This document shows, in pieces, positions 32,104 through 54,056 of a stretch of DNA of 59,057 nt (its first letter is position 1; every line of letters starts with the position of its first letter). The stretch comes from a virus. Taxonomy: Duplodnaviria > Caudoviricetes. Below the pieces are notes generated by a model. It was not told the origin of the DNA, searched no databases, and saw only the letters and a list, made by a program, of their open reading frames with translations. Where the stretch lies: positions 1 through 59,057 of the IMG/VR virus record IMGVR_UViG_3300037524_000403. The stretch is one strand, 5' to 3'. A program made the position numbers and the translations under genes.

Positions 32104-32105
32104 GA

Positions 32106-33674: not shown

Positions 33675-33704
33675 TTGACAAATCAACCGGGCCAACCCTA
33701 CATT
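33675..33704 (+). promoter_or_regulatory. Sigma70-type promoter; probable leaderless transcript
   Basis: TTGACA-N18-TACATT; ATG at 33712 lies 7 nt downstream with no SD. Confidence 0.55.
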
Positions 33705-33711
33705 TCCACAA

Positions 33712-36766: not shown

Positions 36767-37782
36767 GTACCTTTCCCTGCGTTCAGCTTGGCGCTGGCCA
36801 CGATGTCGTCCACATGGGACTTCTCCAAGTGCCCGTATCTCTCATTCAGAACATCAATATCCTTCCAGCCGCCGCCCTCCTGTACGTCCTTCAAGCGAGC
36901 GCCTGAGAGGAGGAGGCGGGTAGCAAAGGCATGGCGACCGATCTTGTGGGTGGAGTAGTAAGTCAGTCCGTTGTTCTTACAAAGGGTGCGGAGATACTGG
37001 TTGATGTTCATTGCAGGCTCGGGGACCTGAAGCTTGGCGAACACAGGGTCAGAGCGATCGCCAAACTGGCACTCCGCGAACAAGTCCAGCATTGCCTCCC
37101 GCACCTCAGGGTGCATCCGTACGGAGTGAGGCTTGCCGTTCTTGGTCTTGATGAAGGTGATGACATTCTCAGACCAGGAGATGTGCCCCCACCTCAACCT
37201 CTTCAGATCGGATGGCCTAATCCCGTGGAAGGTCAGGATCAGAATCACGGCCTGTAGCCAGATAGGCATGGGGCAATCCAAGAGAGCTTGGATGTGATCC
37301 TCTGGAGCTGCCTGGACCTGCTTAGGATCTACCTTGGGCTTCTTGAGAGTCACCCTTGGACAGAGGTTATTATCCGCTGCAAGGTTTAGGATGGCTGCCA
37401 TTGGGCCATAGATCGCCCGCTTGAGCGTCCCGGTAGATACCTTACCAGGGCACCGGATCTTCTCGTACTTGATCACCGCGTCTTGGGTGATGTCACCGCA
37501 GCGCCATTCCCCCCAGTAGGTAAGGAGCCGCTGGATGTAATAGGCCTGCTTGGGCTTGGGGTCCTTGCGGCGGCAGTAAAACTCAACCGCCTCTGCAAAG
37601 GTAAAGGTAGAGGCAGTGCCGTGGATGGCCCTGTCCTGTATCTTCTGCGTTACCTTTATTAGCAGGGCTTCTGCCGTGCGGCGGTCAGAAGTTCTTGTGC
37701 TCTCGCGCACGCGCTCTCCGAGGAGCGTACCAACGAGCCAATACGTGCGACTCTTCCCGCGCGTCTTAAGTTTGATCGACAC
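36736..37782 (-). CDS. int: Tyrosine recombinase (integrase)
   Basis: Catalytic set GIRPSD, KTKNG, HKIGRHAFAT, GW and RYGH. Confidence 0.9.
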   Translation of the reverse strand: MSIKLKTRGKSRTYWLVGTLLGERVRESTRTSDRRTAEALLIKVTQKIQDRAIHGTASTFTFAEAVEFYCRRKDPKPKQAYYIQRLLTYWGEWRCGDITQDAVIKYEKIRCPGKVSTGTLKRAIYGPMAAILNLAADNNLCPRVTLKKPKVDPKQVQAAPEDHIQALLDCPMPIWLQAVILILTFHGIRPSDLKRLRWGHISWSENVITFIKTKNGKPHSVRMHPEVREAMLDLFAECQFGDRSDPVFAKLQVPEPAMNINQYLRTLCKNNGLTYYSTHKIGRHAFATRLLLSGARLKDVQEGGGWKDIDVLNERYGHLEKSHVDDIVASAKLNAGKGTCVKKTSFQG

Positions 37783-42516: not shown

Positions 42517-42545
42517 AAGGTACATAACCTTGCGTTACCCGTCAA
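42517..42545 (-). promoter_or_regulatory. Leftward early promoter with operator in the spacer
   Basis: TTGACG-N17-TACCTT; the spacer is GGTAAC-GCAAG-GTTATG. Confidence 0.75.
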
Positions 42546-42620: not shown

Positions 42621-42923
42621 TCAGACGATCCGTCGTTTAGCTTTGCCGAGGTTCTTGTTGATCCGTTCGACTAAAGCCATTGAAAGGCCAGACAAATCTC
42701 CGCGATAGATCCAGTCTAGGGTTAGTCCCCATGCGTCACACATCAAGACGCCAACCTCCCAAGGAGGCCGACGCGCGCCAGACTCATACATCGTCTGAGC
42801 CTCGCGAGTTATCCCTAGAGGCTTTGCAAAGCCGCGCTGCGTTATGCCGATTGCCATCCTCGTTATGCGAATCCGCTCGCCTACAGAGATTGCAGTGTAG
42901 ATCTCTGGATCTTTCTGCTTCAT
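42621..42923 (-). CDS. CI-like XRE repressor (no peptidase domain)
   Basis: GERIRITRMAIGITQRGFA...YESGARRP...TLDWIYRG; divergent from the cro-like gene. Confidence 0.8.
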   Translation of the reverse strand: MKQKDPEIYTAISVGERIRITRMAIGITQRGFAKPLGITREAQTMYESGARRPPWEVGVLMCDAWGLTLDWIYRGDLSGLSMALVERINKNLGKAKRRIV

Positions 42924-43042
42924 CGATTCTCCCCCTGGTAACAGGGCGGGTTTACCCCGGTTATAGTTCTCATGCAATTGTAACATCGCGTGTACTCATT
43001 GGACATACGCCCACCACCCGGCGCATGTATTGTTAAGGGTGC

Positions 43043-43070
43043 TTGACACCACGTAACCCTGAGTTATGCT
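43043..43070 (+). promoter_or_regulatory. Rightward early promoter with operator
   Basis: TTGACA-N16-TATGCT overlapping CGTAAC-CCTGA-GTTATG. Confidence 0.7.
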
Positions 43071-43362: not shown

Positions 43363-43379
43363 AGCTATGGGGTAACTCA

Positions 43380-44060
43380 ATGTTACTGGACGAGGTTAAT
43401 AGGTCAAAGGTTTACGTGTGGACTGAGGAGGCTGACGAGCGGCTGCTGAGGCTGCGCAAGCAGGGCTACTCCTACCCACGGATAGCCGAGATGATGGACA
43501 TCCCCTCCGAGGGCGTTGTCAGGCGGCGGGTTGAGAAGCTGACCCCCATAGGAGAGCAGCGCCCCCTTGGTCCCTTCCGCCCCTTCACGGACGAGGAAAA
43601 GGAGGAGTTCAAAAAGCTCTTTCTGGATGGGGTATCAATGAGTGACATCGCCGCCAAGATGGGCAGGACCAAGGGTTCTGTCTGTGGAATGCGGCTGAGG
43701 ATGGGGTTACCTAAGCGGATAAGGATTGCCAAGCCTGGAGAGCCGAACCCCTACGGCTGCCAGATCAGCAAGACGCGGCTGAGGCAGCGCTGCGATGGAA
43801 AGCCCAGGGCTCCCAAGATTGCCAAGGACCCGTCAGCCCTCAGGGAGGCTGAGCAGCGTCTAGCAGAGGCAGCGGACGTGGGCTTTCACGGTGGCGGGCT
43901 GACCTTTGCTCAGCTCACCCCGTCTTGCTGCCGTTTCATCAAGGGCGAGGTGCAGGACCCTGCCCATCGCTACTGCGGCTCCAAGGTAGTGCCCGGTCAT
44001 AGCTGGTGCCGCCACCACATGGGAGTGGTGTTCCGCCCGGAGCAATCCCGTGTTCGATGA
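43380..44060 (+). CDS. GcrA-like transcription regulator with two N-terminal HTH repeats
   Basis: WTEEADERL and FTDEEKEEFKKLFLDGVSMSDIAAKMGRTKGSV; C-terminal CCRFIKGE...YCG...WCRHH. Confidence 0.75.
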   Translation: MLLDEVNRSKVYVWTEEADERLLRLRKQGYSYPRIAEMMDIPSEGVVRRRVEKLTPIGEQRPLGPFRPFTDEEKEEFKKLFLDGVSMSDIAAKMGRTKGSVCGMRLRMGLPKRIRIAKPGEPNPYGCQISKTRLRQRCDGKPRAPKIAKDPSALREAEQRLAEAADVGFHGGGLTFAQLTPSCCRFIKGEVQDPAHRYCGSKVVPGHSWCRHHMGVVFRPEQSRVR

Positions 44061-44529
44061 TATCGAGCTGGCTCCAAAGGAAAAGAAAGAAGAGCCCAAG
44101 CCCAAGAAGAAGATCAAGCGCAGACTTTGGGAGCCATCTCCAGAATACATCAAGATGGTCATCGACACCCTGATAGAGGAGGGGTTCCCAAAGACTCGGA
44201 TCAAGTTCCGTAAGGGCGAGCGGAAGGTCCGATTACTTTTGAAGTGCCGTGGGTACGATGAGATCCACTTTGTATTCCGCAAGTTTTACACGCCGCATCA
44301 TGTCCGCCAATTCTTGAAACTCATGTACCGCTGGGATGAGCCCGGCAGGAGGCCAAAACGTGGACGACCCAGAAAACCAAAAACCCCAAATCCTAAAAAG
44401 CCTAGAGCCTTGGACAGAAGAACTAAAGCCTGGCGTAAGCAGAGGATTCACAAATTTAAGTCGGCTCAGACAGGAATCACTTATCCGCTGCTACCAAAAC
44501 GGCGTCGAGCAAAGCTGGCCCCTAAATAG
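44050..44529 (+). CDS. Basic hypothetical protein with AT-hook-like motif
   Basis: KRGRPRKPK. Confidence 0.5.
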   Translation: MFDDIELAPKEKKEEPKPKKKIKRRLWEPSPEYIKMVIDTLIEEGFPKTRIKFRKGERKVRLLLKCRGYDEIHFVFRKFYTPHHVRQFLKLMYRWDEPGRRPKRGRPRKPKTPNPKKPRALDRRTKAWRKQRIHKFKSAQTGITYPLLPKRRRAKLAPK

Positions 44530-44678
44530 CCCCTGCTCGCATCAGCTCGGCCCATACGGCTGGCTCTCTGACACCCTGCTTTCTGGGTACTCCTGCTACC
44601 GCAAGGGGGACGGGACTTTGTACGTCTATCGAACCGTCATTGTGAACGGTGAAACTGATTGGAACTGGAGTTAGTAAA

Positions 44679-45530
44679 ATGAGTGTTTATCAATTCGTAC
44701 GTGCAAAGAAAGCCGGAGATCCGTTCGCCAAGGCGGTACTGATTGCACTGGCTCACTATGCGAACTGGGAGTGGGGGCATTGCTTCCCCAGCGCCCAGAC
44801 CATCGCAAACGATTGCGAGTGTACCGAGAAGACGGTCAGGACTAAGCTCGAATATCTAGTCCAGAAGGGCCTCATTTCGATCCAGCAAAGGCCAGGAAAA
44901 ACCCCGGTCATAACCCTGACTGGGTACCGCGAATGGTTTCTTGAGAGTGAAAAACGTGCTGGTGCTACCCCGGTAAGCCTTACCGACCCTACCCAGTTGG
45001 GTAGGTCCGGTAACCCCGGTAAGCCGTACCGGGGTACCCCGGAATCCTACGACGCCACCCCGGTAAGCCACGCCATGACCCCGGTACCCGGTACCGACGA
45101 ACTTATAATAGAACAGTATAATAACTATAATATACAGCAGGACCGGGCTACGTCGGTGGACGCTTGGGAGGCGTCCCCTCCTCCGCCCTCCAAATCAAGT
45201 GAAGTGAAGTGGGCATCCGATCAGATCGAAAACCCCTCTTCGCCCGTGGTTCACCTTCCGAGCGGAGAAGCCCGCGAGATTGCAAAGAGGGCTGCGCTCA
45301 AGGCAGCCGCCGACAAGATCTCGACAGCCCAGTGGCCATTCGTGCGCCGGGACGAGAACCCGAAAGAGTTCGCCGCGTGGATGAACTGGTTTGAGGCGAA
45401 CGACTGTAAGGCTCAGCTCCATCTTTCAACCATCAAGGGCATGGCCCGCGTCCCCCACCTGGACGTGGATAAAGGCGCAGAGATTTTCCGCCGCAAATAT
45501 TTGTTTGACAGGCCTGCCCAAGTAGGGTAA
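44679..45530 (+). CDS. Replication initiator (N-terminal wHTH)
   Basis: AKAVLIALAHYAN...CFPSAQTIANDCECTEKTVRTKLEYL; internal iterons. Confidence 0.8.
   Translation: MSVYQFVRAKKAGDPFAKAVLIALAHYANWEWGHCFPSAQTIANDCECTEKTVRTKLEYLVQKGLISIQQRPGKTPVITLTGYREWFLESEKRAGATPVSLTDPTQLGRSGNPGKPYRGTPESYDATPVSHAMTPVPGTDELIIEQYNNYNIQQDRATSVDAWEASPPPPSKSSEVKWASDQIENPSSPVVHLPSGEAREIAKRAALKAAADKISTAQWPFVRRDENPKEFAAWMNWFEANDCKAQLHLSTIKGMARVPHLDVDKGAEIFRRKYLFDRPAQVG
44967..45135. repeat. Replication origin: ACCCCGGTAAGCC iterons plus AT-rich tract
   Basis: Exact copies at 44967, 45013 and 45057; variants at 45036 and 45078; AT-rich 45101-45135. Confidence 0.8.
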
Positions 45531-45556
45531 CACTGCGTTATCAGCCAGTGGGAGAG
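45505..45556 (+). promoter_or_regulatory. Promoter, operator and TCAGCCA-SD box
   Basis: TTGACA-N17-TAACAC; GGTAAC-ACTGC-GTTATC; TCAGCCAGTGGGAGAG before the ATG. Confidence 0.6.
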
Positions 45557-45557
45557 T

Positions 45558-45893
45558 ATGATGAGACGGATACTGTGTCGTCACCTGTTGGAGGCCACTT
45601 CGTTGGAAACCTCCGTCTCGGTTGAGGCCCTGATGGGCCGCTGCAAAACAGCCAAGATAGCCGCCGCTCGCCGCCTGATGTACTTCGCGGTCCCGGAAGT
45701 CGGTCTGGGGCTGAGCGAGATGGCCCGGTACATAGGCCGGGACCACTCCACGATCTGCAAGCTGATCCACTCGAAGGATCTCAAGGACGATGAGAGGGCC
45801 AAGGTTGAGGCCATCAAGCTGACGGCCCAACTTGTTGCCAGCGAGCATAAACGCCGCCTTCAGGACGCTTTCAGCACTGGGGTCGCGGCGTGA
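45558..45893 (+). CDS. DnaA C-terminal-like HTH protein
   Basis: AAARRLMYF...LSEMARYIGRDHSTI. Confidence 0.75.
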   Translation: MMRRILCRHLLEATSLETSVSVEALMGRCKTAKIAAARRLMYFAVPEVGLGLSEMARYIGRDHSTICKLIHSKDLKDDERAKVEAIKLTAQLVASEHKRRLQDAFSTGVAA

Positions 45894-46237
45894 TGAAGAT
45901 TTGGAAAGAGTTTTCTTTCGAGGCGTCCCACATCCTGCCGCCAAACGGTTTGCACGGGCACAGCTATCGGGTCCGCGTCACGATTACCGGCAAGCAGGAC
46001 GAAGGCGGCATGGTTATGCACATGGACGACTTTGAGAGGGCTTGTGCATATGTGCGCGGCAATCTCGATCATCGGCACTTGAACGACTTCATGGAGCATC
46101 CGACGCTGGAAAATTTGGCCAGAAAAATTGGGAAAGAAGTTCCATTGGCTGGCCGCAACCTCCAAGTGTTTCGCGTTGAGGTTTGGCGTCCGACTTGCGG
46201 GGACGGCGCGATTTGGGGAATTGCCGACGATGTATAA
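45890..46237 (+). CDS. QueD/6-pyruvoyl-tetrahydropterin synthase-like T-fold protein
   Basis: FEASH..LHGHSY, LDHRHLN and PTLENLA motifs. Confidence 0.8.
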   Translation: MMKIWKEFSFEASHILPPNGLHGHSYRVRVTITGKQDEGGMVMHMDDFERACAYVRGNLDHRHLNDFMEHPTLENLARKIGKEVPLAGRNLQVFRVEVWRPTCGDGAIWGIADDV

Positions 46238-46393
46238 AACCTCTTGGTCTTACAAATGCGAGACGTGCGGTGCGCCTTTGGTGCGCAAGAAAAAGCGTTG
46301 CGTTGATTGCGAGTATGAGCGGCACTTGGCGCAAGTCAGAAAGGACTACCATCGCAAGAAGGATCGTGAGGGGCAGAAGGTGAAAGCTGCGCA

Positions 46394-47080
46394 ATGACGA
46401 TCAAGTACCACGGAACACCGATAACACCGAAAGCACAGCTCGCCAGGATGTTTGGGCAGCACTTCTGCGTCTCGTTTGCGAGGCCAGATGACGCTGATAT
46501 GTGCGAGGAGATCGGGCAGTCTGTTCTGTGGGACAACGGCGCCTTTTCGGCCTACACGCAAAACCGCGAATTTGATGAGCAGGCTTTGTACGTTTGGTTG
46601 GAGCCCCGCTTGTACCATCCCCATCGTGCAGTTGTGTTGGATCGCATTGGTGGCGACGTGGATGCGCAGCGCGAGATGCTGAGGCGGTGGCCATTTCCGA
46701 AAGAATTAAGCTGGCCGGTTTGGCATTTGGATAAACCGCTCGATTATCTCAGTGAGCTTTCTGACGAGTACGGGGCCTTGTGTCTTGGCTCAGCGGGTTT
46801 GTACTGGGAGATTGGCTCAGTGGCTTGGACGCGACGAATGGAGCAGGTCTTTGAGCATTTAACCCGTCGAGGGCGATTGCCTTGGCTTCATGGCCTGAGA
46901 ATGCTGGGGCAGGTTTCTGAGTGGCCGTTGGCTTCTGCTGACTCCACGAATGCAGCTCAGAATTTTGCACGGGATACAGGATGCGCGCGATGCAAGGCCG
47001 AGCAAATAAACCGCCAAAATTGGCATGGCCGGAAGAAAATGGAATTGAATGTTGATCTGTTTTCGGAGCCAGCCCAATGA
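46394..47080 (+). CDS. DpdA/TGT-like putative base-exchange enzyme
   Basis: LWDNGAFS, WPVWH, LHGLRM and ASADST motifs; next to the QueD-like gene. Confidence 0.6.
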   Translation: MTIKYHGTPITPKAQLARMFGQHFCVSFARPDDADMCEEIGQSVLWDNGAFSAYTQNREFDEQALYVWLEPRLYHPHRAVVLDRIGGDVDAQREMLRRWPFPKELSWPVWHLDKPLDYLSELSDEYGALCLGSAGLYWEIGSVAWTRRMEQVFEHLTRRGRLPWLHGLRMLGQVSEWPLASADSTNAAQNFARDTGCARCKAEQINRQNWHGRKKMELNVDLFSEPAQ

Positions 47081-47703
47081 AAGACATCCTCAAGGCGGCA
47101 CTCAACCGCGAGATGGGTGGAGAGGATGCGACCAAGGTTGTGGAGATCTCCCGCAACCACGCAATCCCCCCAACGCAAGACCGCCTAGCCAAGATCAACG
47201 GCGGTACCTCGGTTGAACAGGTGGCGGAGTTCCCCTCTGCCGCTTGGCGGATGGTCCCGGCAGTTGAGCAACTGGCAATCCAACGCCGCGTCAGCCCCAA
47301 CATGCTCCAGGCTGCAAAGCTCTACGTCACGCTGAGCTACCTTGCTGCCGGTCCAAGCGCTGGGATTGGACGGTACGATAGCCATCAGGAAGCAAGCCCC
47401 AGTTGGTCCCGGCTGAACACCACGGATGAGCGGATTAAGGCGGCCAAGATGTTCAAGGGTGCAAGGCTGGCAGCATTTGGCACCCAGACCAAGAGCGGGG
47501 CCTGGGAACTGGACGAGGCTCTGGTCCAGGCGATTGAGCCCCTACTGCTGGCAGATCCTGACCGCTCTTGGACCTTTGAAAAGATCGGGGCCTTCCTTGG
47601 CAGCTACAACAAACGAGACACCAAGAGCGCCGTTGGCGTGACGGAATTGATCGCCGTTCTGAGGCGGCTGAGGCTGTACTTCCGTATGGGGGAGGACGGT
47701 TGA
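47077..47703 (+). CDS. Hypothetical protein (possible late regulator)
   Basis: Coupled ORF; position only. Confidence 0.5.
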   Translation: MKDILKAALNREMGGEDATKVVEISRNHAIPPTQDRLAKINGGTSVEQVAEFPSAAWRMVPAVEQLAIQRRVSPNMLQAAKLYVTLSYLAAGPSAGIGRYDSHQEASPSWSRLNTTDERIKAAKMFKGARLAAFGTQTKSGAWELDEALVQAIEPLLLADPDRSWTFEKIGAFLGSYNKRDTKSAVGVTELIAVLRRLRLYFRMGEDG

Positions 47704-47787
47704 ACCGTAGAATAGCGATTGCTGGGCCACCGTATGGCCTAAGAACGGCGTTTAGTTATTTTAGGTGTCAGACAGTGTCCGAAAAAG

Positions 47788-48180
47788 ATGGCCGTAAAAA
47801 ACGATCTGGAGGGCTTGGACCCGTATGGGGTGAACAAGCGCCTGAAATTGAGCCCCAAGAAGCGGCTCCAGTTGTTCTTGGAGCATTCAGGACGGTGCTG
47901 CCTATGCAAGCAGCCCATCCAGGTTGGGGATGGGTACATCGTGGAGCACGTATTGCCCCTAGCTCTTGGCGGTACGAACGACTGGGAGAACCTGGCCCCT
48001 GCCCACCGTTCCTGCGCTACCGCGAAGACCTCCAAGGAGGCCAAGGAGCGAGCCAAGGGGCGGAGAGTGGCGGAAAAGCACTTTGGCGGCAGGCAATCAA
48101 GGCGACCCATGCCTGGATCAAAGGCAAGTGGTTTGAAGAAAAAGCTTAATGGCCAAGTGGTGAGGCGAGATGATGAGTAA
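47788..48180 (+). CDS. HNH endonuclease
   Basis: CCLC...VEHVLPLALGGTNDWENLAPAHRSC. Confidence 0.85.
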   Translation: MAVKNDLEGLDPYGVNKRLKLSPKKRLQLFLEHSGRCCLCKQPIQVGDGYIVEHVLPLALGGTNDWENLAPAHRSCATAKTSKEAKERAKGRRVAEKHFGGRQSRRPMPGSKASGLKKKLNGQVVRRDDE

Positions 48181-48609
48181 GGATGAGCTTCTACATCGGC
48201 TGGATGTACTGGAAGACATGCTCATCAAGGCGATGTCTGAACTTGCCAATGCTAGGAACTATCTGACAAGTCTACGTTTTTTAGTGGAGAAAAAGGATGA
48301 TTGAAGGTCTTGGCATTGGGTTTGGCTTTGCGCTGGGCTTCTGGCTCTCTGGCCTGCTGTGCCTGCTAGGCTTTGTAATCCTTAGCTATTTCTTGGATTG
48401 GGTCTTTGGCCGCAAATGAGCTTCCCGGATAGTCCGGGAGGGCCGCCTGAGGGCGGATAAAACAGAGTGCCCTAACTGCCCTTACAGTTTGAGCACCCTG
48501 GATTTTTCAATGGAGAGGGGCGGCATGGAATGACAGACTCCATGCCCAGCCAAGCCAGCAATGGTGGATACCCCCGCAAGGGGCCGAATGGCGCTCGGAA
48601 ACCTCTCCA

Positions 48610-48852
48610 ATGAAAGCCTCTAACCTGAGTCTCAGTATGAGCGTCCTGTGCAAGACCTGTGGCAAGCAAGGCAAGGTCGTAGACTCGCGCCGTCATGGCG
48701 AGACGATCTGGAGACGCCGGGAATGCTGCGGGGATCGCTGGACAACCATAGAGGGCGGCAGCAACGAGGAGTTGAGGGCTCTGCGCGCTAAGGTAGAGCA
48801 ATATCGGACCATGATTGCAGGAATCAGATCAGCCTTAGGAGGCAGAGAATGA
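48610..48852 (+). CDS. NrdR-like zinc-ribbon protein
   Basis: CKTCG..KVVDSR...IWRRREC. Confidence 0.6.
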   Translation: MKASNLSLSMSVLCKTCGKQGKVVDSRRHGETIWRRRECCGDRWTTIEGGSNEELRALRAKVEQYRTMIAGIRSALGGRE

Positions 48853-49061
48853 CGGAAGAGAAAACCATCACTATCCCGGAATCCACCTATGCTGCCCTAT
48901 TGGGCCAGGCAGCCTTTCTCAGGGCCTCAGTCCATGCGCTGGGTGGAAGCTATGAGATCACCTTTGACAACATGCAGACCAATGGGACTGGTCCGATTGA
49001 GCTTAGGGGAGATCCGGTCAGAAAGACTATTTTTTGCAAGGTGGTGGAGCGGGAGACATGA
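48849..49061 (+). CDS. Hypothetical protein
   Basis: AGGAGG RBS; ATGA coupling. Confidence 0.5.
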   Translation: MTEEKTITIPESTYAALLGQAAFLRASVHALGGSYEITFDNMQTNGTGPIELRGDPVRKTIFCKVVERET

Positions 49062-49342
49062 CCCCCGAGGAACGCGCGAAAGACATCTCGTCTCTGGTCA
49101 GAGTGGATGCGGACGGGCGATTGATGTTCGACGGGCAGGATAACAACCCCGAGTGCTTGCTGACAGATGCCATAGCCGCCGCCATTCGCGAAGCCATCCT
49201 CGCAGAACGTGAGGCATGTGCGAGCTTGGCGCGTGAATTGGATATGCCGGACGATCTAGAGCCGCCGACACATACATTTATTGAAGGCTGGCAGAGCGCC
49301 TGCGCCCACATCGCCGCCGCCATCCGTGCAAGAGGCTCTTGA
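49058..49342 (+). CDS. Hypothetical protein
   Basis: AEREACA...IAAAIRARG, a common small phage protein pattern. Confidence 0.55.
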   Translation: MTPEERAKDISSLVRVDADGRLMFDGQDNNPECLLTDAIAAAIREAILAEREACASLARELDMPDDLEPPTHTFIEGWQSACAHIAAAIRARGS

Positions 49343-49367
49343 CGCGCGCATCTGCCTGATATATACA
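49339..49367 (+). promoter_or_regulatory. Sigma70-type promoter for the putative sRNA
   Basis: TTGACG-N17-TATACA. Confidence 0.6.
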
Positions 49368-49373
49368 CCTAAC

Positions 49374-49487
49374 ATCAGCGCAAGTTCCGCGCTGGACGAG
49401 TTAGCCTGGTCAGGGCTTAATCTGGCCTCTCCTCATGGCTGAAGAGAGAAAAGCCCGGTAGGATCAAGAGATCCCGCCGGGTTTTTT
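49374..49487 (+). ncRNA. Putative multi-target antisense sRNA (~114 nt)
   Basis: Promoter, three hairpins and a terminator; 49427-49443 is complementary to six RBS boxes. Confidence 0.55.
49449..49487. terminator. Bidirectional intrinsic terminator
   Basis: AAAAG-CCCGG..GGATC-AAGA-GATCC..CCGGG-TTTTTT between convergent operons. Confidence 0.75.
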
Positions 49488-49767
49488 ACGTAAAAGCCAT
49501 TGATTTTTCTTGGGAACCTAAAAATCAGGCCCGAGTCATGGGCCACCCCCGCTACACATTTGTAGGGCGCTCTCCGTCATCTGCATTGGTGTTAGCGGCT
49601 AATGTCAGCCGCATTGGTGTTCATTGATTTACCCCGACCGTTTCACGGTGGGGGAGCTGCCGGGGATGCAAGGCAGCAAGACCCCTCCCAGCTAGGCCGG
49701 GAGGGGCGGTATTCATGGCGCAGGGGATGGAACCCGTAGAGGTTTTCTACAGGTTCACACCGCTGCG

Positions 49768-50088
49768 TCAGGCGTCTTCTATGTTGGCCTTGAAGTGGTT
49801 TTCGATCGTTGCGGTTTTACCGTGACGCTCTAACCATTCCAGGGCCTCATTTGGGGACAGGGGGCGGATGATGTTGGAGCCGCCGCAGTATCCCCCGCCA
49901 TAGGCTGGCTGGGAATAGGCGGATAGCGGGCCACCTGAACCACAGATGAACCAGTTCCCGCGCTTTGTGCGGTACAACTGTTCATGGACGTTCCTAAAGT
50001 CGGGACATCCAAGCCCGTTGTCATAGCTGGCAACAAGCTCTGCCGTCTCGGTGTCGTAACGCTTTCCGCCGATTACCTTTTTAGTCAT
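49768..50088 (-). CDS. Conserved hypothetical protein
   Basis: KKVIGGKRYDTETAE...LYRTKRGNWF; GGAGAG RBS. Confidence 0.7.
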   Translation of the reverse strand: MTKKVIGGKRYDTETAELVASYDNGLGCPDFRNVHEQLYRTKRGNWFICGSGGPLSAYSQPAYGGGYCGGSNIIRPLSPNEALEWLERHGKTATIENHFKANIEDA

Positions 50089-50163
50089 TTCACTCTCCAT
50101 TGGCTGACTCTCCCGTGGCGGGAGGCAATGCCCCCGGAATAGATCCAGGGGCATCACGTCGCG
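50089..50163 (-). promoter_or_regulatory. Structured leader E0 (long hairpin, short hairpin, TCAGCCAA-SD)
   Basis: Same architecture as E1-E4. Confidence 0.6.
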
Positions 50164-50262
50164 TCACAGATTAGACCGATAAGCAACGATCCAATAGATC
50201 AGAACAAGGCCAAGGCCAGCATAAGCCAAGGCTCCCATTGAGCAGCCCAGAAGCTCAAGCAT
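50164..50262 (-). CDS. 32-aa membrane peptide
   Basis: MLELLGCSMGALAYAGLGLVLIYWIVAYRSNL; AAGGA RBS. Confidence 0.45.
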   Translation of the reverse strand: MLELLGCSMGALAYAGLGLVLIYWIVAYRSNL

Positions 50263-50527
50263 ATTCCTTGCGCTCCTCATTAAGATGCTCGGCAATCTCC
50301 TGCCAATCAACGTCGTTCATTTCCCGATCTGAATCCATATCGGGGGTGCGTGCCTTTCCGGTGAAGTCTTGGAACAATTGGGTGCAGAACTCCTCCGCTT
50401 CGTCCGCGTCAATCTCATTGACTGAACGCCGCAGAAAGCGCTGCTTTTCCCGGTACATAGGCTCCTCGTTATCAATCCATAGATTGATCTGCCAAGTCGC
50501 CCAATTCTTCCATCCGTTGTAAGACAT
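50255..50527 (-). CDS. Conserved hypothetical protein
   Basis: YNGWKNWATWQINLWIDNE...VDWQEIAE. Confidence 0.7.
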   Translation of the reverse strand: MSYNGWKNWATWQINLWIDNEEPMYREKQRFLRRSVNEIDADEAEEFCTQLFQDFTGKARTPDMDSDREMNDVDWQEIAEHLNEERKEYA

Positions 50528-50607
50528 CGTTTTCTTCCTTTGGCTGAAATGGTGCAAAGCGCACCAGCAAGGGCACTAAGGGTTACCTCAGTGCCCAAGC
50601 TGCTAGG
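50528..50607 (-). promoter_or_regulatory. Structured leader E1
   Basis: 3 bp, UU/UU loop, 10 bp, GUAACN loop; short hairpin; TCAGCCAAAGGA. Confidence 0.7.
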
Positions 50608-50854
50608 CTTTACCGCCGTTGATTATCCTCAGAGCTGGCGAGACGCCGCGAAGTTTGCGGTGCTGCGCTGCTGTAAGGGCTTTGGGTTTAGCCGGTGCCC
50701 TTGGCTTTCGAGCTTTGGGCTTAGGCTCCACCGCTTTGCGCTGGGCGCGTGATCGCTGGAAATAATCCCAGAGATACCCGCCACAGATCAAAGGCGCGAA
50801 CGCCAAGAAAACCAGAACATCGAGTAGCGAGGTAGGTCTTTCTGCTGCTCTCAT
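50603..50854 (-). CDS. Small membrane protein
   Basis: TM segment LLDVLVFLAFAPLICGGYLW; ATGA coupling. Confidence 0.55.
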   Translation of the reverse strand: MRAAERPTSLLDVLVFLAFAPLICGGYLWDYFQRSRAQRKAVEPKPKARKPRAPAKPKALTAAQHRKLRGVSPALRIINGGKA

Positions 50855-51006
50855 AGCGACCTCCCAACGATCCAATCCATTGCGGCGGATTTGCTTGGAA
50901 GGTTGGCGACGACGTAAGGCTCAGTCTCGTAATCCCAGTCGAGCACAAGCCAACGCTTGGAAAACCTGGAATATTCAACGTAATACCCTAGAAACTCGAA
51001 TTTCAT
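50851..51006 (-). CDS. 51-aa hypothetical protein (below the ORF-track cut-off)
   Basis: MKFEFLGYYVEYSRFSKRWLVLDW...; GGAGAG RBS. Confidence 0.6.
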   Translation of the reverse strand: MKFEFLGYYVEYSRFSKRWLVLDWDYETEPYVVANLPSKSAAMDWIVGRSL

Positions 51007-51088
51007 TTAACTCTCCATTTGGCTGAACCCCGTGCAATAGCACAGGCGCAAGGTCTCAGAGAGTTACCCCTGAGACCAAGCGGCTAGG
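51007..51088 (-). promoter_or_regulatory. Structured leader E2
   Basis: Same fold as E1 with compensatory changes. Confidence 0.7.
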
Positions 51089-51991
51089 CTATGCTGCAAG
51101 TTCTAGATGCTCCAAGACTGCCGGAACGCTGGCTTTAGTCTTGAGAAAGTCCGCAGCCTTTTGAGCGGCGGAAGCGGCGGTAAAAATGAACCGCTTGTCA
51201 TTCTTCAAGGCTGTAAGCCAGTTGGCCAGATAAGCAGCATGTTGCTGCCCCTCGCCATCAATCCCTAGTTCCGCGCAAAGAAAGGCCGAGCAAAGCTCGG
51301 CTACCAATTCTTCGGCGGCATACTCAGGATTGCCAAAGCGGCCTTTATGCAAGTCACGTTTGCACCGTGACTCATGGTCGGTCCAATGCCCCAATTCGTG
51401 AAGCATTGTCGCGGCGTAGTGCCCAGGCGATTTGAACGCGCCACGAATTGGGAAGTCGATCGTGTCACGCGATGGTGAGTAGCAAGCCCTGGAAGATCCG
51501 AATCTTACATCGGCTCCAGTTGCCTTGACCCACGCATCAAAACCAGGATCAGAGATAGGGTCCGCAAGCTTTCTTGGTGCGGTCAGTCTCTCTGGTAGCC
51601 CATCACATTGGGCTACGTTGAACACGTAATAAGAACGCATCATCGTGATGCTGCGATCCTCTTCCGTGCCATCGTCCTGTTTTTCCTTCACGGTGAGCGG
51701 CTTTACAAAGACAATAAATGTCCCCTTCTCGCCGCCCTTGACCGTCCCGCCTGCTTCCTTTGCCTGCTTAAAGGTAAGGAATCCGGCGGTAGGCCAACCA
51801 TGAACCGCCTGGGCGATCCACAGCAGCAGCGTATTCACGCCGCTGTAGGGTCGCTTGGTCACCGCGTTATGAGGGTCGGCACTATGGCCAATCTCTTTCC
51901 AGGGCTTGACCCATGGCGGCAAGCCGCCTGATTCAAGCTGGGCGATGATCTGGTTGGTCACAGTCTGGTACACATCAAGCTTCTTTTCCAT
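51089..51991 (-). CDS. ardC: ArdC-like antirestriction protein (ssDNA-binding plus zincin domain)
   Basis: PWVKPW, YSGVNTLLLW, TFKQA, VFNVAQ, HELGHWT and YAAEELVAE motifs. Confidence 0.9.
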   Translation of the reverse strand: MEKKLDVYQTVTNQIIAQLESGGLPPWVKPWKEIGHSADPHNAVTKRPYSGVNTLLLWIAQAVHGWPTAGFLTFKQAKEAGGTVKGGEKGTFIVFVKPLTVKEKQDDGTEEDRSITMMRSYYVFNVAQCDGLPERLTAPRKLADPISDPGFDAWVKATGADVRFGSSRACYSPSRDTIDFPIRGAFKSPGHYAATMLHELGHWTDHESRCKRDLHKGRFGNPEYAAEELVAELCSAFLCAELGIDGEGQQHAAYLANWLTALKNDKRFIFTAASAAQKAADFLKTKASVPAVLEHLELAA

Positions 51992-52072
51992 CGTTCTATC
52001 CCTTTGGCTGAAGGTCCTGCATAGTGCAGGCTCAAGGTCTCACAGCGTTACCCATGAGACCAAGAGGCTGGA
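51992..52072 (-). promoter_or_regulatory. Structured leader E3
   Basis: Same fold as E1/E2. Confidence 0.7.
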
Positions 52073-52336
52073 CTATTCGAGTCTGTCAACGTAGAGCCTT
52101 ACCTTGATACCGTCCCGGCGATTGTTGCCCGTGACGGGATCAATGGGCCGGTCAATCTCTATTGAGATCCACTCGTTTTTGCCCCGGTTGATGTAGTTGA
52201 AGCCGCTTAGGGTCATACCACGATGACAGAGCTGGCCATATCCGCCGCGATATTCATATTCCGGGAATGATTCCATCTCCGCAAACAGTGCAGAGACTTG
52301 TTCCTCAGTCGCCGTGACGGTGTGAATAAGAGGCAT
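52073..52336 (-). CDS. Hypothetical protein
   Basis: GGAG RBS; first clear gene of the leftward operon. Confidence 0.6.
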   Translation of the reverse strand: MPLIHTVTATEEQVSALFAEMESFPEYEYRGGYGQLCHRGMTLSGFNYINRGKNEWISIEIDRPIDPVTGNNRRDGIKVRLYVDRLE

Positions 52337-52411
52337 TTTCTTCTCCATTGGCTGACGCTGCAATTTGCAGCCCGCTACCGTCTCAGCTCGAAAGCAAAGA
52401 CGGCAGCAGGC
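52337..52411 (-). promoter_or_regulatory. Structured leader E4
   Basis: Long hairpin with TTCG loop, CTGCA-AAT-TGCAG hairpin, TCAGCCAATGGAG. Confidence 0.6.
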
Positions 52412-52569
52412 CATAAATTGGAGATGGTAGAAGCGCCCCACGAATCCGCTCTTCGCGGCTCACTGGCACCTGTTGATGGGTACTCCATCGGTCCTAGTGG
52501 GGGATTGCGTTGTTTTCTGCCTGGTGGAGGGGTAGGGCTCGCAAGGCCGGAACGTGATTGAATATCACG

Positions 52570-52598
52570 AAGGTAACACAACGATACCCAATTGTCAA
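52570..52598 (-). promoter_or_regulatory. Promoter of the ArdC operon with operator
   Basis: TTGACA-N17-TACCTT, same -10 as the 42517 promoter; overlaps GGTAAC-ACAAC-GATACC. Confidence 0.75.
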
Positions 52599-52631
52599 CG
52601 GGGCAAGTGAATTAAACCAGGATCAATTGCC

Positions 52632-52943
52632 ATGACTTATCCGTGGCACAGGGAATATGAGGATCAAATGAACTACGATGAATCAAAGGCAAAGCCCAAA
52701 AAGGCCAAGGCTCCCGAGCCCATGAAATTGAAAGATGAAACGAGCTGGGTAGATCACATTGATAGCGCTTTCCTGCTCTTTGGCGTGGCAATCGCTATTA
52801 TCATCGTCCTGTTATTTGTGACAAAGCCGGACGCTCCCTCCCTTGAGGAGGCTTCAAGGCCTGCCGTGACTGAACCGGCAAAGCCTGGTGGCAAGCCCGG
52901 CGAGTCAGCCCAGGATGTATTTGATAGGAATTTCGGACGCTGA
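52632..52943 (+). CDS. Membrane protein
   Basis: TM segment AFLLFGVAIAIIIVLLFV. Confidence 0.55.
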   Translation: MTYPWHREYEDQMNYDESKAKPKKAKAPEPMKLKDETSWVDHIDSAFLLFGVAIAIIIVLLFVTKPDAPSLEEASRPAVTEPAKPGGKPGESAQDVFDRNFGR

Positions 52944-53066
52944 TGCGCACAGCAGCCGAAAGACTGGCCAAGGTTAGGGTGACATGGGGCACTCCGGCTC
53001 TAGCCTTGGCTCTTTCCCTCATACAACTTCTCGAAAAAATAATCTTGGAAGCCCACGAAAACGAAT

Positions 53067-53672
53067 ATGGCCAGAACTCTTGAAACAACAGTCCAAGAGA
53101 ACGCCAATATCCTTGCTGTTCCAAAGGGCAACCAAATAGACAGATACAAGCCTGATGCGAGGGAACTGGTAGAATACTCCCCAGAATTAGCCTCTTTTAT
53201 CCTGAGAGAGATAGGAAAGGGCAGAAGCCTAATTACAGTCTGCCAAGATGAGGGGATGCCACATCACGCCTCATTTCTCAGGTGGTGTCATGAGATGCCT
53301 GAATTGATGGACAGGTACTGCCATGCAAAGAAGCTCCGAGCGCACGCCAAGGCTGAAGAGGTATCAGCCCTCACTGACGCCTTAGATCCTGTAAATACTG
53401 GGAAAAATGAGGCTTACGTCACTGACATCAAGGCCAGAAACCTGCTGCGGATAGCAGAGCTAGGCGATCCAGCCTCATTCAGTCCTAAGATGCAGATGAT
53501 GCACCATCACTCAGGTGGCGTGGTCAGCATCACGATGGACCTGTCAGCACCACAGTCCCGACCGATAATTGACACGACTGCGAGCCAAGTACCTGAAACA
53601 CCTCAAATAGACGCGCCTCAGGTGGGCGACAGTGAGAAAAAGGGCGAGGGGGGTGGGGGGTCTACAGCTTGA
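53067..53672 (+). CDS. terS: Terminase small subunit (Sf6 gp1-like HTH)
   Basis: YSPELASFILREIGKGRSLITVCQDEGMP...FLRW. Confidence 0.75.
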   Translation: MARTLETTVQENANILAVPKGNQIDRYKPDARELVEYSPELASFILREIGKGRSLITVCQDEGMPHHASFLRWCHEMPELMDRYCHAKKLRAHAKAEEVSALTDALDPVNTGKNEAYVTDIKARNLLRIAELGDPASFSPKMQMMHHHSGGVVSITMDLSAPQSRPIIDTTASQVPETPQIDAPQVGDSEKKGEGGGGSTA

Positions 53673-53852
53673 GTCCCCCAGTCTGAATTGATGGGGGGGT
53701 ATGTTATCGTGTTCCACCTCCGACCCACACACAGTTCTTCCCTCAGATCGGCCTGTCTTAATTTTTTTTGCTACGTGTGGGCGGCGCGGTTAGGAATTGG
53801 TTCCCAGTGGCAGCGAGCCGAAAGAAATGGTTTTGCGTTTAGGGTGGCCTGG

Positions 53853-54056
53853 ATGCCAGTAAGTAAAGCAGAACTGGTTCTGCATTCCATCTTGAAGGCT
53901 GCGCCTTTTTACAAGCCGTGTCTGACGTGCCAGCACGGTTGGTTCAGGGGGAGTGACCACATGGGGTGGTGTAGGAATGTCCCCCCGTTGAAGACACCCA
54001 GGCCTGTGGATGAGGTCCACACCTGCGCTGCATGGAAGCAAAAGCTAGATGAGTAA
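53853..54056 (+). CDS. Small Cys-rich protein
   Basis: CLTCQH...GWC...TCAAW. Confidence 0.45.
   Translation: MPVSKAELVLHSILKAAPFYKPCLTCQHGWFRGSDHMGWCRNVPPLKTPRPVDEVHTCAAWKQKLDE

What the first reader, a model, noticed from the sequence alone, without database searches (positions are those of the whole stretch)
49339..49487. Candidate phage sRNA whose seed matches six ribosome-binding sites (trans-acting antisense regulon)
Seen: an intergenic unit with a promoter (TTGACG-N17-TATACA), three hairpins and a terminator. Hairpin 3 contains CTCTCC-TCA-TGGCTGAA (49427-49443) with UGGC in the apical loop. It is complementary to a TCAGCCA-N2/3-SD box directly upstream of five minus-strand genes. The + strand matches are 50093 CTCTCC-AT-TGGCTGA, 50534 CTTCC-TT-TGGCTGAA, 51011 CTCTCC-ATT-TGGCTGAA, 51999 TCCC-TT-TGGCTGAAG and 52342 TCTCC-AT-TGGCTGA. 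A sixth box precedes a distant + strand gene (45541 TCAGCCAGTGGGAGAG, DnaA-like HTH). I saw no TAAC-N5-GTTA operator on this promoter, so it could be active in the lysogen. Inference: one sRNA occludes the SD of ardC and its neighbours, conceptually like P1 c4 or P4 CI RNA but with many targets. Alternative: the segment is a geneless seventh copy of a protein-binding box read on the minus strand.
Basis: partly seen in the sequence, partly recalled or inferred. Interest (0 to 1): 0.88.

Follow-up and report, generated by a model that had tools for sequence, protein, structure and literature searches.

The report
Possible phage antisense RNA against shared leaders
A short gene-free stretch between two converging phage operons carries one more copy of a leader motif found in front of the genes of the phage's anti-restriction operon, so RNA read from its other strand could pair with and silence all those genes, but no transcript or regulation has been shown.

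Summary
TCAGCCA-N2-3-SD precedes all five independently started cistrons of the minus-strand ardC operon and one plus-strand gene (45541). A seventh, geneless copy lies at 49442-49426, just upstream of a strong plus-strand intrinsic terminator.

New here: the box is not specific to this phage. In two relatives (L051, L043) the same place is held by type II hammerhead ribozymes, and (U)CAGCCA(A) is their pseudoknot 3' tail. The window has lost the hammerhead cores but keeps the 7-mer unchanged in 7 of 7 copies.

The plus-strand replication operon ends at 49342 and its first terminator is at 49453-49487. Its RNA must therefore carry the anti-box, with or without the candidate promoter.

Support for a regulator is indirect:
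- The -10 lacks the usual final T.
- The seed is partly paired.
- Predicted energies are moderate; the six targets rank 6 to 190 of 244.
- There is no Rfam match and no relative of the unit was found.

My estimates are about 0.38 for a trans antisense anti-SD RNA, about 0.3 for a relic within a bidirectional terminator, and about 0.15 for a protein or ribosome site.

The parts
49339..49367 (+). Promoter-like site: TTGACG (49339-49344), N17, TATACA (49362-49367). The -35 overlaps the stop codon (49340-49342) of the last plus-strand gene.
   Evidence: Read. Not called by the consensus scan. It is one of 5 matches to TTGACR-N16-18-TANNNW, with 2.5 expected. No operator lies on it.
49376..49394 (+). 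Hairpin 1 of the candidate RNA (CAGCGC / AAGUUCC / GCGCUG).
   Evidence: Present in the MFE folds of both strands.
49426..49442 (+). Anti-SD plus anti-box, CCTCTCCT-CA-TGGCTGA. On the minus strand this is the geneless seventh copy, TCAGCCA-TG-AGGAGAGG.
   Evidence: No start codon lies at SD distance on the minus strand.
49427..49448 (.). It has all standard pairs on the minus strand (one U-G) and a C.A mismatch on the plus strand.
49453..49487 (.). Intrinsic terminator. The G+C-rich interrupted stem runs 49453-49481. On the plus strand it is followed by T6 (49482-49487). On the minus strand it is preceded by A6 and followed by CUUUUCUCUCUU, so it may work in both directions.
52334..52425 (-). 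E5: two hairpins, box 52355-52349, SD GGAGAA and ATG 52336 (87-aa first cistron).
51989..52072 (-). E1: long hairpin with UU/UU internal loop and GUAACN loop, hairpin 2, box 52011-52005, SD GGGATAG and ATG 51991 (ArdC).
51004..51090 (-). E2: same architecture as E1, box 51026-51020, SD GGAGAG and ATG 51006 (51-aa gene, followed by a translationally coupled 83-aa gene).
50525..50606 (-). E3: same architecture as E1, box 50547-50541, SD GGAAGA and ATG 50527 (DUF7249 gene).
50086..50178 (-). E4: two hairpins, box 50107-50101, SD GGAGAG and ATG 50088 (106-aa gene). The 5' part reads GACGCGAC, and the 9-mer CAGCCAATG is shared with the hammerhead in front of the orthologous gene in L051.
45527..45563 (+). 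Plus-strand copy: operator GTAACACTGCGTTAT (45527-45541) abutting box 45541-45547, SD GGGAGAG, and ATG 45558 or 45561 (DnaA-C-like HTH gene).
52570..52598 (-). Promoter-like site of the ardC operon, TTGACA-N17-TACCTT, overlapped by an operator-like palindrome (52573-52587).

Best explanation
The segment is a geneless copy of the standard cistron leader (UCAGCCA, 2-3 nt, SD) that heads every independently translated cistron of the convergent ardC operon. It sits in the last 145 nt of the plus-strand replication/DNA-modification operon, between that operon's stop codon and its intrinsic terminator. A candidate promoter of its own lies upstream.

Shown:
- Plus-strand RNA ending at 49487 carries CCUCUCCU-CA-UGGCUGA.
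- This sequence is complementary to box plus SD of five minus-strand cistrons (87 aa, ArdC, 51 aa, DUF7249, 106 aa) and of one plus-strand gene (DnaA-C-like HTH).

Inferred:
- This RNA accumulates, either as a primary transcript of about 114 nt or as a terminator-protected 3' UTR fragment.
- It contacts the single-stranded GCCA of the leaders through its UGGC loop.
- Pairing then extends over the SD (7-8 bp, a 2-3-nt internal loop, then 5-7 bp) and blocks ribosome binding. The early anti-restriction operon would thus be shut off once the replication operon is on. If the operator-free promoter is active in the lysogen, the operon would also be kept silent there.

The box itself was probably inherited from the pseudoknot tail of type II hammerheads that once separated these cistrons.
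For: 1. Complementarity to all six translation initiation regions is real, and each lies at a fixed distance from the start codon.
2. Geometry: the last plus-strand gene ends at 49342 and the first plus-strand terminator (G+C stem plus T6) is at 49453-49487, so the anti-box is transcribed with that operon. The fold is far more stable than shuffles, z = -4.1.
3. The promoter-like site has a perfect TTGAC -35 and N17 spacing. The relaxed pattern has only 5 matches in 59 kb, and the other four precede operons. It carries no operator, whereas the ardC-operon promoter and the early promoters do.
4. The window's elements have no hammerhead core, so the 7-mer has lost its pseudoknot role there. It is nevertheless identical in 7 of 7 copies, while the adjoining hairpin stems have diverged with compensatory changes (8 of 20 predicted pairs).
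5. The geneless copy shares no flanks with the other copies and has the longest SD, which suggests it is maintained.
6. The boxes in the targets are moderately accessible, with mean unpaired probability 0.35-0.63.
7. Duplex energies for the six targets are -19.0 to -24.9 kcal/mol, against a background mean of -11.7 (sd 3.9).
8. Precedent: c4 of P1/P7 and sar of P22 block translation at the ant RBS (passages of PMC12197685). AbcR1 in alphaproteobacteria addresses many mRNAs (abstract of PMC4152367). A GcrA-like gene points to an alphaproteobacterial host.
Against: 1. No transcript has been shown.
2. The -10 TATACA ends in A, where the four other promoter-like sites end in T, and the consensus scan does not call it. 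Of 100 shuffles, 13 give 5 or more matches to the relaxed pattern.
3. The copy has the same orientation as the five neighbouring copies, so complementarity of the other strand follows automatically.
4. The 9-bp hairpin has only standard pairs on the minus strand. On the plus strand it has a C.A mismatch, and it is not in the MFE of the 116-nt RNA. Apart from the 4-nt loop the seed is mostly paired.
5. Energies are not exceptional. 1203 of 39354 background windows reach -20 kcal/mol or lower. With intramolecular structure included, the six targets rank 6, 14, 35, 51, 61 and 190 of 244 SD-bearing starts.
6. There is no match to any Rfam family, C4 included.
7. Related operons show that such standard leaders exist without a visible antisense copy. 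L043's record (18.8 kb, 24% complete) has 3 TCAGCCA boxes and no intergenic reverse copy. G156 (78 kb, 100% complete) has GGAGTCGA 13 times on one strand, and its single reverse copy lies inside an ORF. L058, L129 and L124 behave likewise in the parts fetched.
8. No relative of the unit was found, so there is no covariation test.
Confidence: 0.38

Rival explanations
1. Relic inside a bidirectional terminator. The segment is only the junction of two convergent operons. It holds a two-way intrinsic terminator plus the head of a cistron cassette whose gene was lost. Its SD is locked in a hairpin with the pyrimidine tail of the minus-strand terminator. The promoter-like site is chance, and the plus-strand RNA has no trans function.
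For: - The copy has the same orientation as the five neighbouring copies, lies at the 3' end of their operon, and is preceded by a hairpin as they are.
- The hairpin is perfect on the minus strand only, and the SD has an unpaired probability of about 0.02 there.
- The tail CUUUUCUCUCUU after the stem can serve as a minus-strand terminator tail.
- The -10 lacks the final T.
- Energies and ranks are unremarkable.
- Standard leaders occur in other operons without antisense copies.
Against: - A neutral relic as old as the diverged hairpins of E1-E3 should have lost part of a 7-mer plus 8-nt SD. It has the best SD of all copies and no flank similarity that would mark a recent duplication.
- A second terminator-like hairpin at 49544-49528 already lies upstream on the minus strand, so little minus-strand RNA may reach the copy.
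- All five matches to the relaxed promoter pattern, this one included, fall at gene boundaries.
Confidence: 0.3
2. The box is a site for a protein or a ribosome-associated factor. UCAGCCA plus SD is a start-associated sequence read by a phage or host protein, or by the ribosome, that sets translation of these cistrons. The geneless copy is a further binding site, a decoy or an autoregulatory site, on read-through minus-strand RNA. No antisense RNA is involved.
For: - The motif has a fixed place and orientation relative to start codons.
- It parallels the start-associated sequences of Cluster K mycobacteriophages, whose effector is unknown and may be 'either RNA or protein' (passages of PMC3203893).
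- Similar standard leaders occur in L043-like phages, L058 and L124.
Against: - No candidate RNA-binding protein was identified. The small proteins of the operon have no informative family.
- On the minus strand the geneless copy lies behind two terminator-like hairpins, and its SD is buried.
- This reading does not explain the promoter-like site.
Confidence: 0.15
3. A real plus-strand RNA with another job. The RNA exists, as a 3' UTR fragment or an sRNA, but acts on host mRNAs through its C/U-rich anti-SD stretch, or it merely stabilises the 3' end of the replication-operon mRNA. Pairing with the phage's own leaders is incidental.
For: - CCUCUCCU is a generic anti-SD.
- Many windows elsewhere in the phage pair as well as the six leaders do.
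- Alphaproteobacterial sRNAs with several targets are known (abstract of PMC4152367).
Against: The exact 7-mer next to the anti-SD is shared only with the phage's own leaders. The host genome is unknown, so no host target can be named.
Confidence: 0.1

Closest known systems
c4 antisense RNA of phages P1/P7 (and sar of P22)
   Same: A small phage RNA that pairs around a ribosome-binding site of a phage mRNA and blocks translation, with complementary bases thought to lie in loops (passages of the review PMC12197685).
   Different: c4 and sar each act on a single mRNA (ant). Here six translation initiation regions in two operons would be addressed. There is no sequence or structure match to Rfam C4 or any other family. 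That c4 is cut out of the same transcript as its target is recalled, not checked here.
Multi-target sRNAs of alphaproteobacteria such as AbcR1
   Same: One sRNA with a terminator hairpin addresses many mRNAs at or near their translation initiation regions (title and abstract of PMC4152367 in the listing). A GcrA-like gene suggests this phage has an alphaproteobacterial host.
   Different: AbcR1 is chromosomal and regulates host transporters. Here the RNA and all candidate targets are on the phage. The targets share an exact 7-mer beside the SD. No homology was tested beyond Rfam.
Start-associated sequences (SAS/ESAS) of Cluster K mycobacteriophages
   Same: An asymmetric conserved motif that contains the SD, lies a few nt before the start codons of a subset of non-structural genes, is often preceded by inverted repeats, occurs in one orientation, and has a single odd copy not tied to a gene start. 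Function is unknown, and the effector may be 'RNA or protein' (passages of PMC3203893).
   Different: The motif is different (GGGATAGGAGCCC there) and so are the hosts. There the inverted repeats did not support RNA hairpins. Here the hairpins covary. The odd copy there is in the opposite orientation.
Clustered type II hammerhead ribozymes between prophage genes (Rfam RF02276)
   Same: Structured elements separate single genes, including anti-restriction genes, and the 3' tail after stem II forms a pseudoknot with loop I (passages of PMC3088659). The Rfam consensus ends in AGCCaAAg. L051 has 4 hits above the gathering score, one directly before the orthologue of the window's 106-aa gene, with tail CAGCCAATG.
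   Different: The window's elements have neither CUGANGA nor GAAA and give no hit even at E up to 10. Only the two hairpins and the tail remain.
RNase III processing hairpins between the early genes of phage T7 (recalled, not checked here)
   Same: Hairpins with internal loops lie between the cistrons of an early operon that begins with an anti-restriction gene.
   Different: No cleavage is shown here, and the stems (13-14 bp with a UU/UU loop) are shorter than typical RNase III sites.

Membership tests
Rfam C4 antisense RNA (P1/P7 c4) and any other Rfam family | Match to the family's covariance model | tested here: not met
   No match at gathering scores in the whole window. With E up to 10 on 49200-49800 there were only three unrelated weak hits.
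Trans-acting anti-SD sRNA | Own promoter giving a discrete small transcript | tested here: inconclusive
   TTGACG-N17-TATACA is present, but the -10 lacks the final T and the scan does not call it. No raw-read or strand-specific RNA data were available.
Trans-acting anti-SD sRNA | Rho-independent terminator at the 3' end | tested here: met
   G+C-rich stem 49453-49481 followed by T6, present in the MFE.
Trans-acting anti-SD sRNA | Seed complementary to the SD region of several mRNAs | tested here: met
   7-8 bp plus 5-7 bp with six translation initiation regions, -19.0 to -24.9 kcal/mol. The ranks among all translation initiation regions are only moderate.
Trans-acting anti-SD sRNA | Seed and target co-vary in relatives | not testable with these tools
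Trans-acting anti-SD sRNA | Expression and repression of targets | not testable with these tools
   Only assembled contigs of RNA libraries could be laid. These show neither strand nor ends.
Type II hammerhead ribozyme (RF02276), for the intercistronic elements E1-E5 | Catalytic core CUGANGA ... GAAA with three stems | tested here: not met
   No hit at gathering scores or at E up to 10 on 49300-52700. The core motifs are absent by reading.
Type II hammerhead ribozyme (RF02276), for the intercistronic elements E1-E5 | 3' tail AGCCAA that pairs with loop I | tested here: inconclusive
   The tail sequence is present in all copies, but no hairpin loop in the window complements it. In L051, L043 and L240-243 the loop and tail do pair.
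Start-associated sequence (Cluster K type) | Conserved asymmetric motif including the SD, a few nt before the start codons of a subset of genes, in one orientation relative to the gene | tested here: met
   Six gene-linked copies, all oriented with their gene.
Start-associated sequence (Cluster K type) | The Cluster K consensus GGGATAGGAGCCC | tested here: not met
   The motif here is different. It is an analogue, not a member.

The most novel reading that the evidence does not exclude
The phage has turned the pseudoknot tail of lost intercistronic hammerheads into a common 'address' on every independently translated cistron of its anti-restriction operon, and on one replication-operon gene. 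A single RNA of about 114 nt, or the 3' UTR of the replication operon, reads that address together with the SD and silences the whole set. This would be a phage-internal RNA regulon. It would also be the first effector found for start-associated-sequence-type motifs.
Probability: 0.3. Interest if true: 0.8.

Novelty: new variant of a known kind. Interest (0 to 1): 0.55.

Why it matters
Phage antisense RNAs that block a ribosome-binding site are known for single targets (c4, sar). One RNA that addresses a shared leader on a whole anti-defence operon would be a different design. It would show how a phage can time its anti-restriction genes after transcription.

It would also suggest a function for the conserved 'start-associated' leaders seen in many phage early operons, whose effector has been open since 2011 (PMC3203893, passages).

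One result stands apart from the sRNA question. The link found here between such a leader and the 3' tail of type II hammerheads shows that ribozyme-bearing and ribozyme-free versions of the same intercistronic module exist in related operons. That makes the role of these ribozymes directly comparable between the two versions.

Tried and rejected
RNA evidence. Ten wetland metatranscriptome runs (ten studies, one year and habitat, possibly one campaign) hold 5-11% of the sampled words of 48800-52600. I laid four of them (X4-X7) on 44000-54000. Only Logan contigs were available, at depth 2-6. The pieces lie at 50028-50176, 51413-51833, 52085-52332 and 52444-52735, plus one 36-nt piece at 52656-52691 with loose ends. 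No contig covers 49339-49487, and none covers 44000-49342. An RNA of about 114 nt would also be lost in standard libraries. The six runs I did not lay are no evidence either. Contigs in an RNA library do not prove transcription.

Searches for relatives that found nothing useful:
- The exact 22-mer of hairpin 3 in IMG/VR gave 0 hits.
- The E1-E3 pattern in IMG/VR gave 33 stretches, all ordinary coding sequence by reading.
- The same pattern with a wider gap gave 0 hits in 401 alphaproteobacterial genomes.
- blastn of the region against phages and plasmids matched only ardC coding sequence.
- The 102-aa last plus-strand gene gave one distant hit with a different downstream region.
- The 106-aa gene family gave 186 loci. 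In the regex scan over 192 loci (L041-L232), 12 loci had a match, and only L043 had clustered boxes.
- The Hammerhead_II family in 151 genomes of one order gave 2 weak hits that read as coding sequence, and none in four alphaproteobacterial genomes.

Ideas dropped:
- A bipartite GGUAAC-loop plus box site. The GGTAAC next to the 45541 copy is an operator half-site.
- A pseudoknot between a hairpin loop and the box in the window. There is no consistent complement.
- Pairing of the box with the 16S 3' end. This rests on recalled sequence and the topology is wrong.
- A split hammerhead formed by the plus-strand RNA (CUGAAGA..GAAA) and the leaders. There is no stem II and no allowed cleavage triplet in register (reading).
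- The single reverse GGAGTCGA in G156 as an antisense RNA. It lies inside an ORF, and about one copy is expected by chance.
- The first duplexfold scan with a 38-nt seed, which was uninformative.

As a result the closest homologues of the 106-aa protein (P0002-P0004, 63-73% identity) could not be seen in their contigs. Supplements of papers were closed. The alignments and supplementary figures of PMC3088659, including the A. tumefaciens ardA array, may bear on how general the tail-plus-SD arrangement is.
Full report
WHAT THE WINDOW IS. The window is a complete IMG/VR virus record of 59,057 bases, classed linear and 87% complete.
- It has structural genes on the left and an integrase at 36736-37782.
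- It has an HTH repressor-like gene at 42621-42986 and a GcrA-like gene at 43380-44060. The GcrA-like gene points to an alphaproteobacterial host.
- A plus-strand operon carries a replication initiator (44649-45530), a DnaA-C-like HTH gene (45558-45893) and a queuine-tRNA-ribosyltransferase-like gene (46394-47080), and runs on to a last gene that ends at 49342.
- Converging on it is a minus-strand operon (52336 down to 49768) that contains ArdC (ArdcN plus zincin peptidase, E 1e-37 and 1e-47; PHROG anti-restriction, 3e-83).
- The finding lies in the 425-nt gap between the two operons.

THE OBSERVATION. It is correct in all its coordinates.
- TCAGCCA, 2-3 nt and an SD precede ATG 52336, 51991, 51006, 50527 and 50088 on the minus strand, and ATG 45558/45561 on the plus strand.
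- A seventh copy (TCAGCCA-TG-AGGAGAGG, 49442-49426, minus strand) has no start codon behind it.
- The extended pattern has 6 matches in the record against 0 for the reversed control. The ardC copy has GGGATAG as its SD and is added by reading.
- Every cistron of the minus operon that is not translationally coupled to its predecessor has the box. Two small genes that start at ATGA and ATG overlaps do not.
- A possible eighth copy with 4-nt spacing precedes TTG 32106, a metallophosphoesterase gene.

THE BOXES ARE PART OF LARGER ELEMENTS. Each box ends an intercistronic element.
- E1, E2 and E3 align over about 85 nt. They share a stem of 3 bp, a UU/UU internal loop, 10-11 more bp closed by a GUAACN loop, a second hairpin of 6-7 bp, and then UUCAGCCAAA and the SD.
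- RNAalifold predicts 20 pairs, 8 of them with compensatory changes. Several G-U pairs exist only on the minus-strand RNA.
- E4 and E5 have two other hairpins before the box.

WHERE THE BOX COMES FROM. An ArdC-bearing viral contig (L043, ArdC 45% identical) has five intercistronic elements that read as type II hammerheads. Each runs GGCGAAAC, stem III, GUC, stem I, CUGAYGAGCC. Three of them reach 24-28 bits against Rfam RF02276, below the gathering score of 37. They are followed by (CR)UCAGCCA, CUGA and the SD GGAGUCGA.
- Four related viral contigs show the same arrangement. Their tails are CRUCA or CCAA, which complement loop I (UGAUG or UUGG).
- A metagenome contig (L051) encodes a 56%-identical homologue of the window's 106-aa protein. 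It has four Hammerhead_II hits above the gathering score (46-64 bits). One lies directly before that gene, with the tail CUGACGAG-CAGCCAAUG.
- Window element E4, before the orthologous gene, has the same 9-mer CAGCCAATG at the same place. Its 5' part reads GACGCGAC where L051 has GACGCGAAAC.
- The Rfam consensus itself ends in AGCCaAAg.
- Perreault et al. 2011 describe this tail as the pseudoknot partner of loop I. They also describe clustered hammerheads flanking single prophage genes, ardA among them (passages of PMC3088659).
- The window has no hammerhead. There is no hit at gathering scores, none at E up to 10 over 49300-52700, and no CUGANGA/GAAA core by reading.

So the box matches a ribozyme tail whose ribozyme is gone, and no hairpin loop in the window complements it. 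It is nevertheless identical in all seven copies while the neighbouring stems have diverged.

THE UNIT AT 49339-49487.
- The terminator is strong on the plus strand, with a G+C stem 49453-49481 followed by T6. On the minus strand it has an A6 tract before it and CUUUUCUCUCUU after it, so it may work both ways.
- The last plus-strand gene looks real, with an ordinary protein sequence and G+C-rich third positions by reading. It stops at 49340-49342. RNA of the plus operon must therefore contain the anti-box as part of a 145-nt 3' UTR, whatever the promoter does.
- The promoter-like site has a perfect -35 and N17, but its -10 (TATACA) lacks the final T, and the consensus scan does not report it.
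- A relaxed pattern gives 5 matches in the window (2.5 expected; 13 of 100 shuffles reach 5). The other four precede the late gene at 33712, the exonuclease operon, the early rightward operon and the ardC operon, and all four end in T.
- Operator-like palindromes GTAAC-N5-GTTAY (21 strand matches with at most one mismatch, 2.0 expected) lie on the early promoters, on the ardC-operon promoter (52573-52587) and next to the 45541 box. None lies on the candidate promoter.
- The 116-nt RNA folds at -52.1 kcal/mol (z -4.1). Hairpin 3 is an alternative structure rather than the MFE there (pair probabilities 0.31-0.43). In the 145-nt 3' UTR it is in the MFE (0.21-0.69). In both it is interrupted by a C.A mismatch.
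- On the minus strand the same repeat is a 9-bp hairpin of standard pairs only (one U-G). It is in the MFE and buries the SD.

HOW WELL WOULD IT PAIR?
- Duplex energies of the seed region (49423-49447) with the six leaders are -19.0 to -24.9 kcal/mol. The mean over 39,354 background windows is -11.7 (sd 3.9), and 1,203 of those windows reach -20 or lower.
- With intramolecular structure included (cofold, RNA 49372-49487 against -60..+30 of 244 SD-bearing starts of ORFs of 50 codons or more), the six rank 6, 14, 35, 51, 61 and 190. Two higher-ranked entries overlap the same boxes.
- The boxes in the targets are moderately open, with mean unpaired probability 0.35-0.63.

Pairing is thus plausible but not outstanding. 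The case rests on the shared motif and the geometry.

COMPARATIVE CONTROLS.
- Standard leaders are common in operons of this kind. GGAGTCGA occurs 13 times on one strand and once on the other in a complete 78-kb relative of L043, with 12 and 2 in another. The odd copy that I read lies inside an ORF.
- L058/L129 and L124 have 5-8 copies of other leaders and no geneless reverse copy in the 7-11 kb fetched.
- Perfect leader conservation therefore does not by itself call for an antisense RNA.
- The Cluster K start-associated sequences are the nearest described analogue. They too have a single copy not tied to a gene start, and their effector, 'either RNA or protein', is unknown (passages of PMC3203893).

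WEIGHING. For a functional plus-strand antisense RNA:
- the anti-box is certain to be transcribed with the plus operon;
- the terminator-proximal position is typical of sRNAs and of 3' UTR-derived sRNAs;
- the promoter-like site has no operator;
- the geneless copy appears to be maintained although it has no gene, lies behind two terminator-like hairpins on its own strand, and shares no flanks with other copies.

Against it:
- the copy has the same orientation as its neighbours;
- the hairpin favours the minus strand;
- the -10 is weak;
- the seed is partly paired;
- the energy ranks are moderate;
- there is no Rfam family, no relatives, and no RNA data that can speak to it.

I put the antisense regulator at about 0.38, a relic within a bidirectional terminator at about 0.3, a protein or ribosome site at about 0.15, and a plus-strand RNA with another role at about 0.1.

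COMPARISON WITH WHAT IS KNOWN AND NOVELTY.
- It would work like c4 of P1/P7 or sar of P22, by pairing at an RBS (passages of PMC12197685). It is not a member of the C4 family, and it would have six targets instead of one.
- It resembles multi-target alphaproteobacterial sRNAs such as AbcR1 (abstract only) in logic, but not in origin.
- The elements it would target are analogues of hammerhead-separated cistrons without the ribozyme.
- If true, it is a new variant of a known kind. The tie between a start-associated leader and the hammerhead tail is, as far as two literature searches show (full text of the library only), not described. I did not search specifically for that link, and supplements were closed.

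Noticed in passing
window 50525-52072 (E1 51989-52072, E2 51004-51090, E3 50525-50606), minus strand: There are three copies of a structured intercistronic element. Each has a 3-bp stem, a UU/UU internal loop, a 10-11-bp stem with conserved loop GUAACN, and a second hairpin. Of 20 predicted pairs, 8 have compensatory changes. The elements stand where related operons have type II hammerheads but lack the hammerhead core. Whether they are cleaved, by themselves or by an RNase, is open.
   Followed up: partly
L051 1-2230 (JGI metagenome contig): This is an array of type II hammerheads between small genes. Four hits are above the Rfam gathering score (46-64 bits). A fifth is truncated at the contig end, and there is a partial one near 895. 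One hit directly precedes a homologue of the window's 106-aa gene.
   Followed up: partly
L043 2640-6410; G156 and G157 (whole records): L043 has five hammerhead-like elements, three of them scored by Rfam (24-28 bits, below the gathering score). A start-associated SD, GGAGTCGA, occurs 13 times on one strand and once on the other in G156 (78 kb), and 12 and 2 times in G157 (74 kb). Controls give 0.
   Followed up: partly
window 42524-42538, 43053-43067, 43372-43386, 45527-45541, 52573-52587 and six further sites: An operator-like palindrome, GTAAC-N5-GTTAY, gives 21 strand matches with at most one mismatch against 2.0 expected. It lies on the early promoters, on the ardC-operon promoter and next to the 45541 box. 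The likely repressor is the HTH_31 protein at 42621-42986.
   Followed up: partly
window 33675-33712: The promoter-like site TTGACA-N18-TACATT ends 8 nt before ATG 33712, so that mRNA may be leaderless.
   Followed up: no
window 49583-49621: An 11-bp direct repeat, GCATTGGTGTT, occurs twice flanking a hairpin (GCGGCT/AGCCGC, 49595-49612). A strong hairpin CCCCUCCC/GGGAGGGG lies near 49680-49705 in the same gap. Function unknown.
   Followed up: no
window 32084-32108: A possible eighth box: TCAGCCA-AGAC-GGAGAA-TAGGA-TTG in front of a metallophosphoesterase gene in the late region. It lies inside the end of the upstream gene, and the spacing is 4 nt instead of 2-3.
   Followed up: partly
window 50028-52735: All four wetland metatranscriptome runs laid (four studies, possibly one campaign) hold contigs identical to parts of the ardC operon and its leader. 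None holds the plus-strand operon 44000-49342. Depth is 2-6 and only contigs were available, so this is no more than a hint that the ardC operon is transcribed in nature.
   Followed up: partly
window 43380-44060 and 46394-47080: There is a GcrA-like regulator gene (Pfam 2e-18). There is also a queuine-tRNA-ribosyltransferase-like gene (PHROG 1e-34), which may serve DNA modification in the replication operon.
   Followed up: no
L058/L129 and L124: Other early operons that carry the 106-aa gene family have their own standard leaders. (A)CCACGGAGGA occurs 5-6 times, and TGGAGATGGA/GGGAGATGGA occurs 8 times on the gene strand, mostly 3-5 nt before ATG.
   Followed up: partly
L047 6142-6211: An int-alpA RNA (Rfam RF02996, 67.7 bits) lies about 700 nt downstream of the 106-aa gene homologue in a gammaproteobacterial MAG contig.
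   Followed up: no
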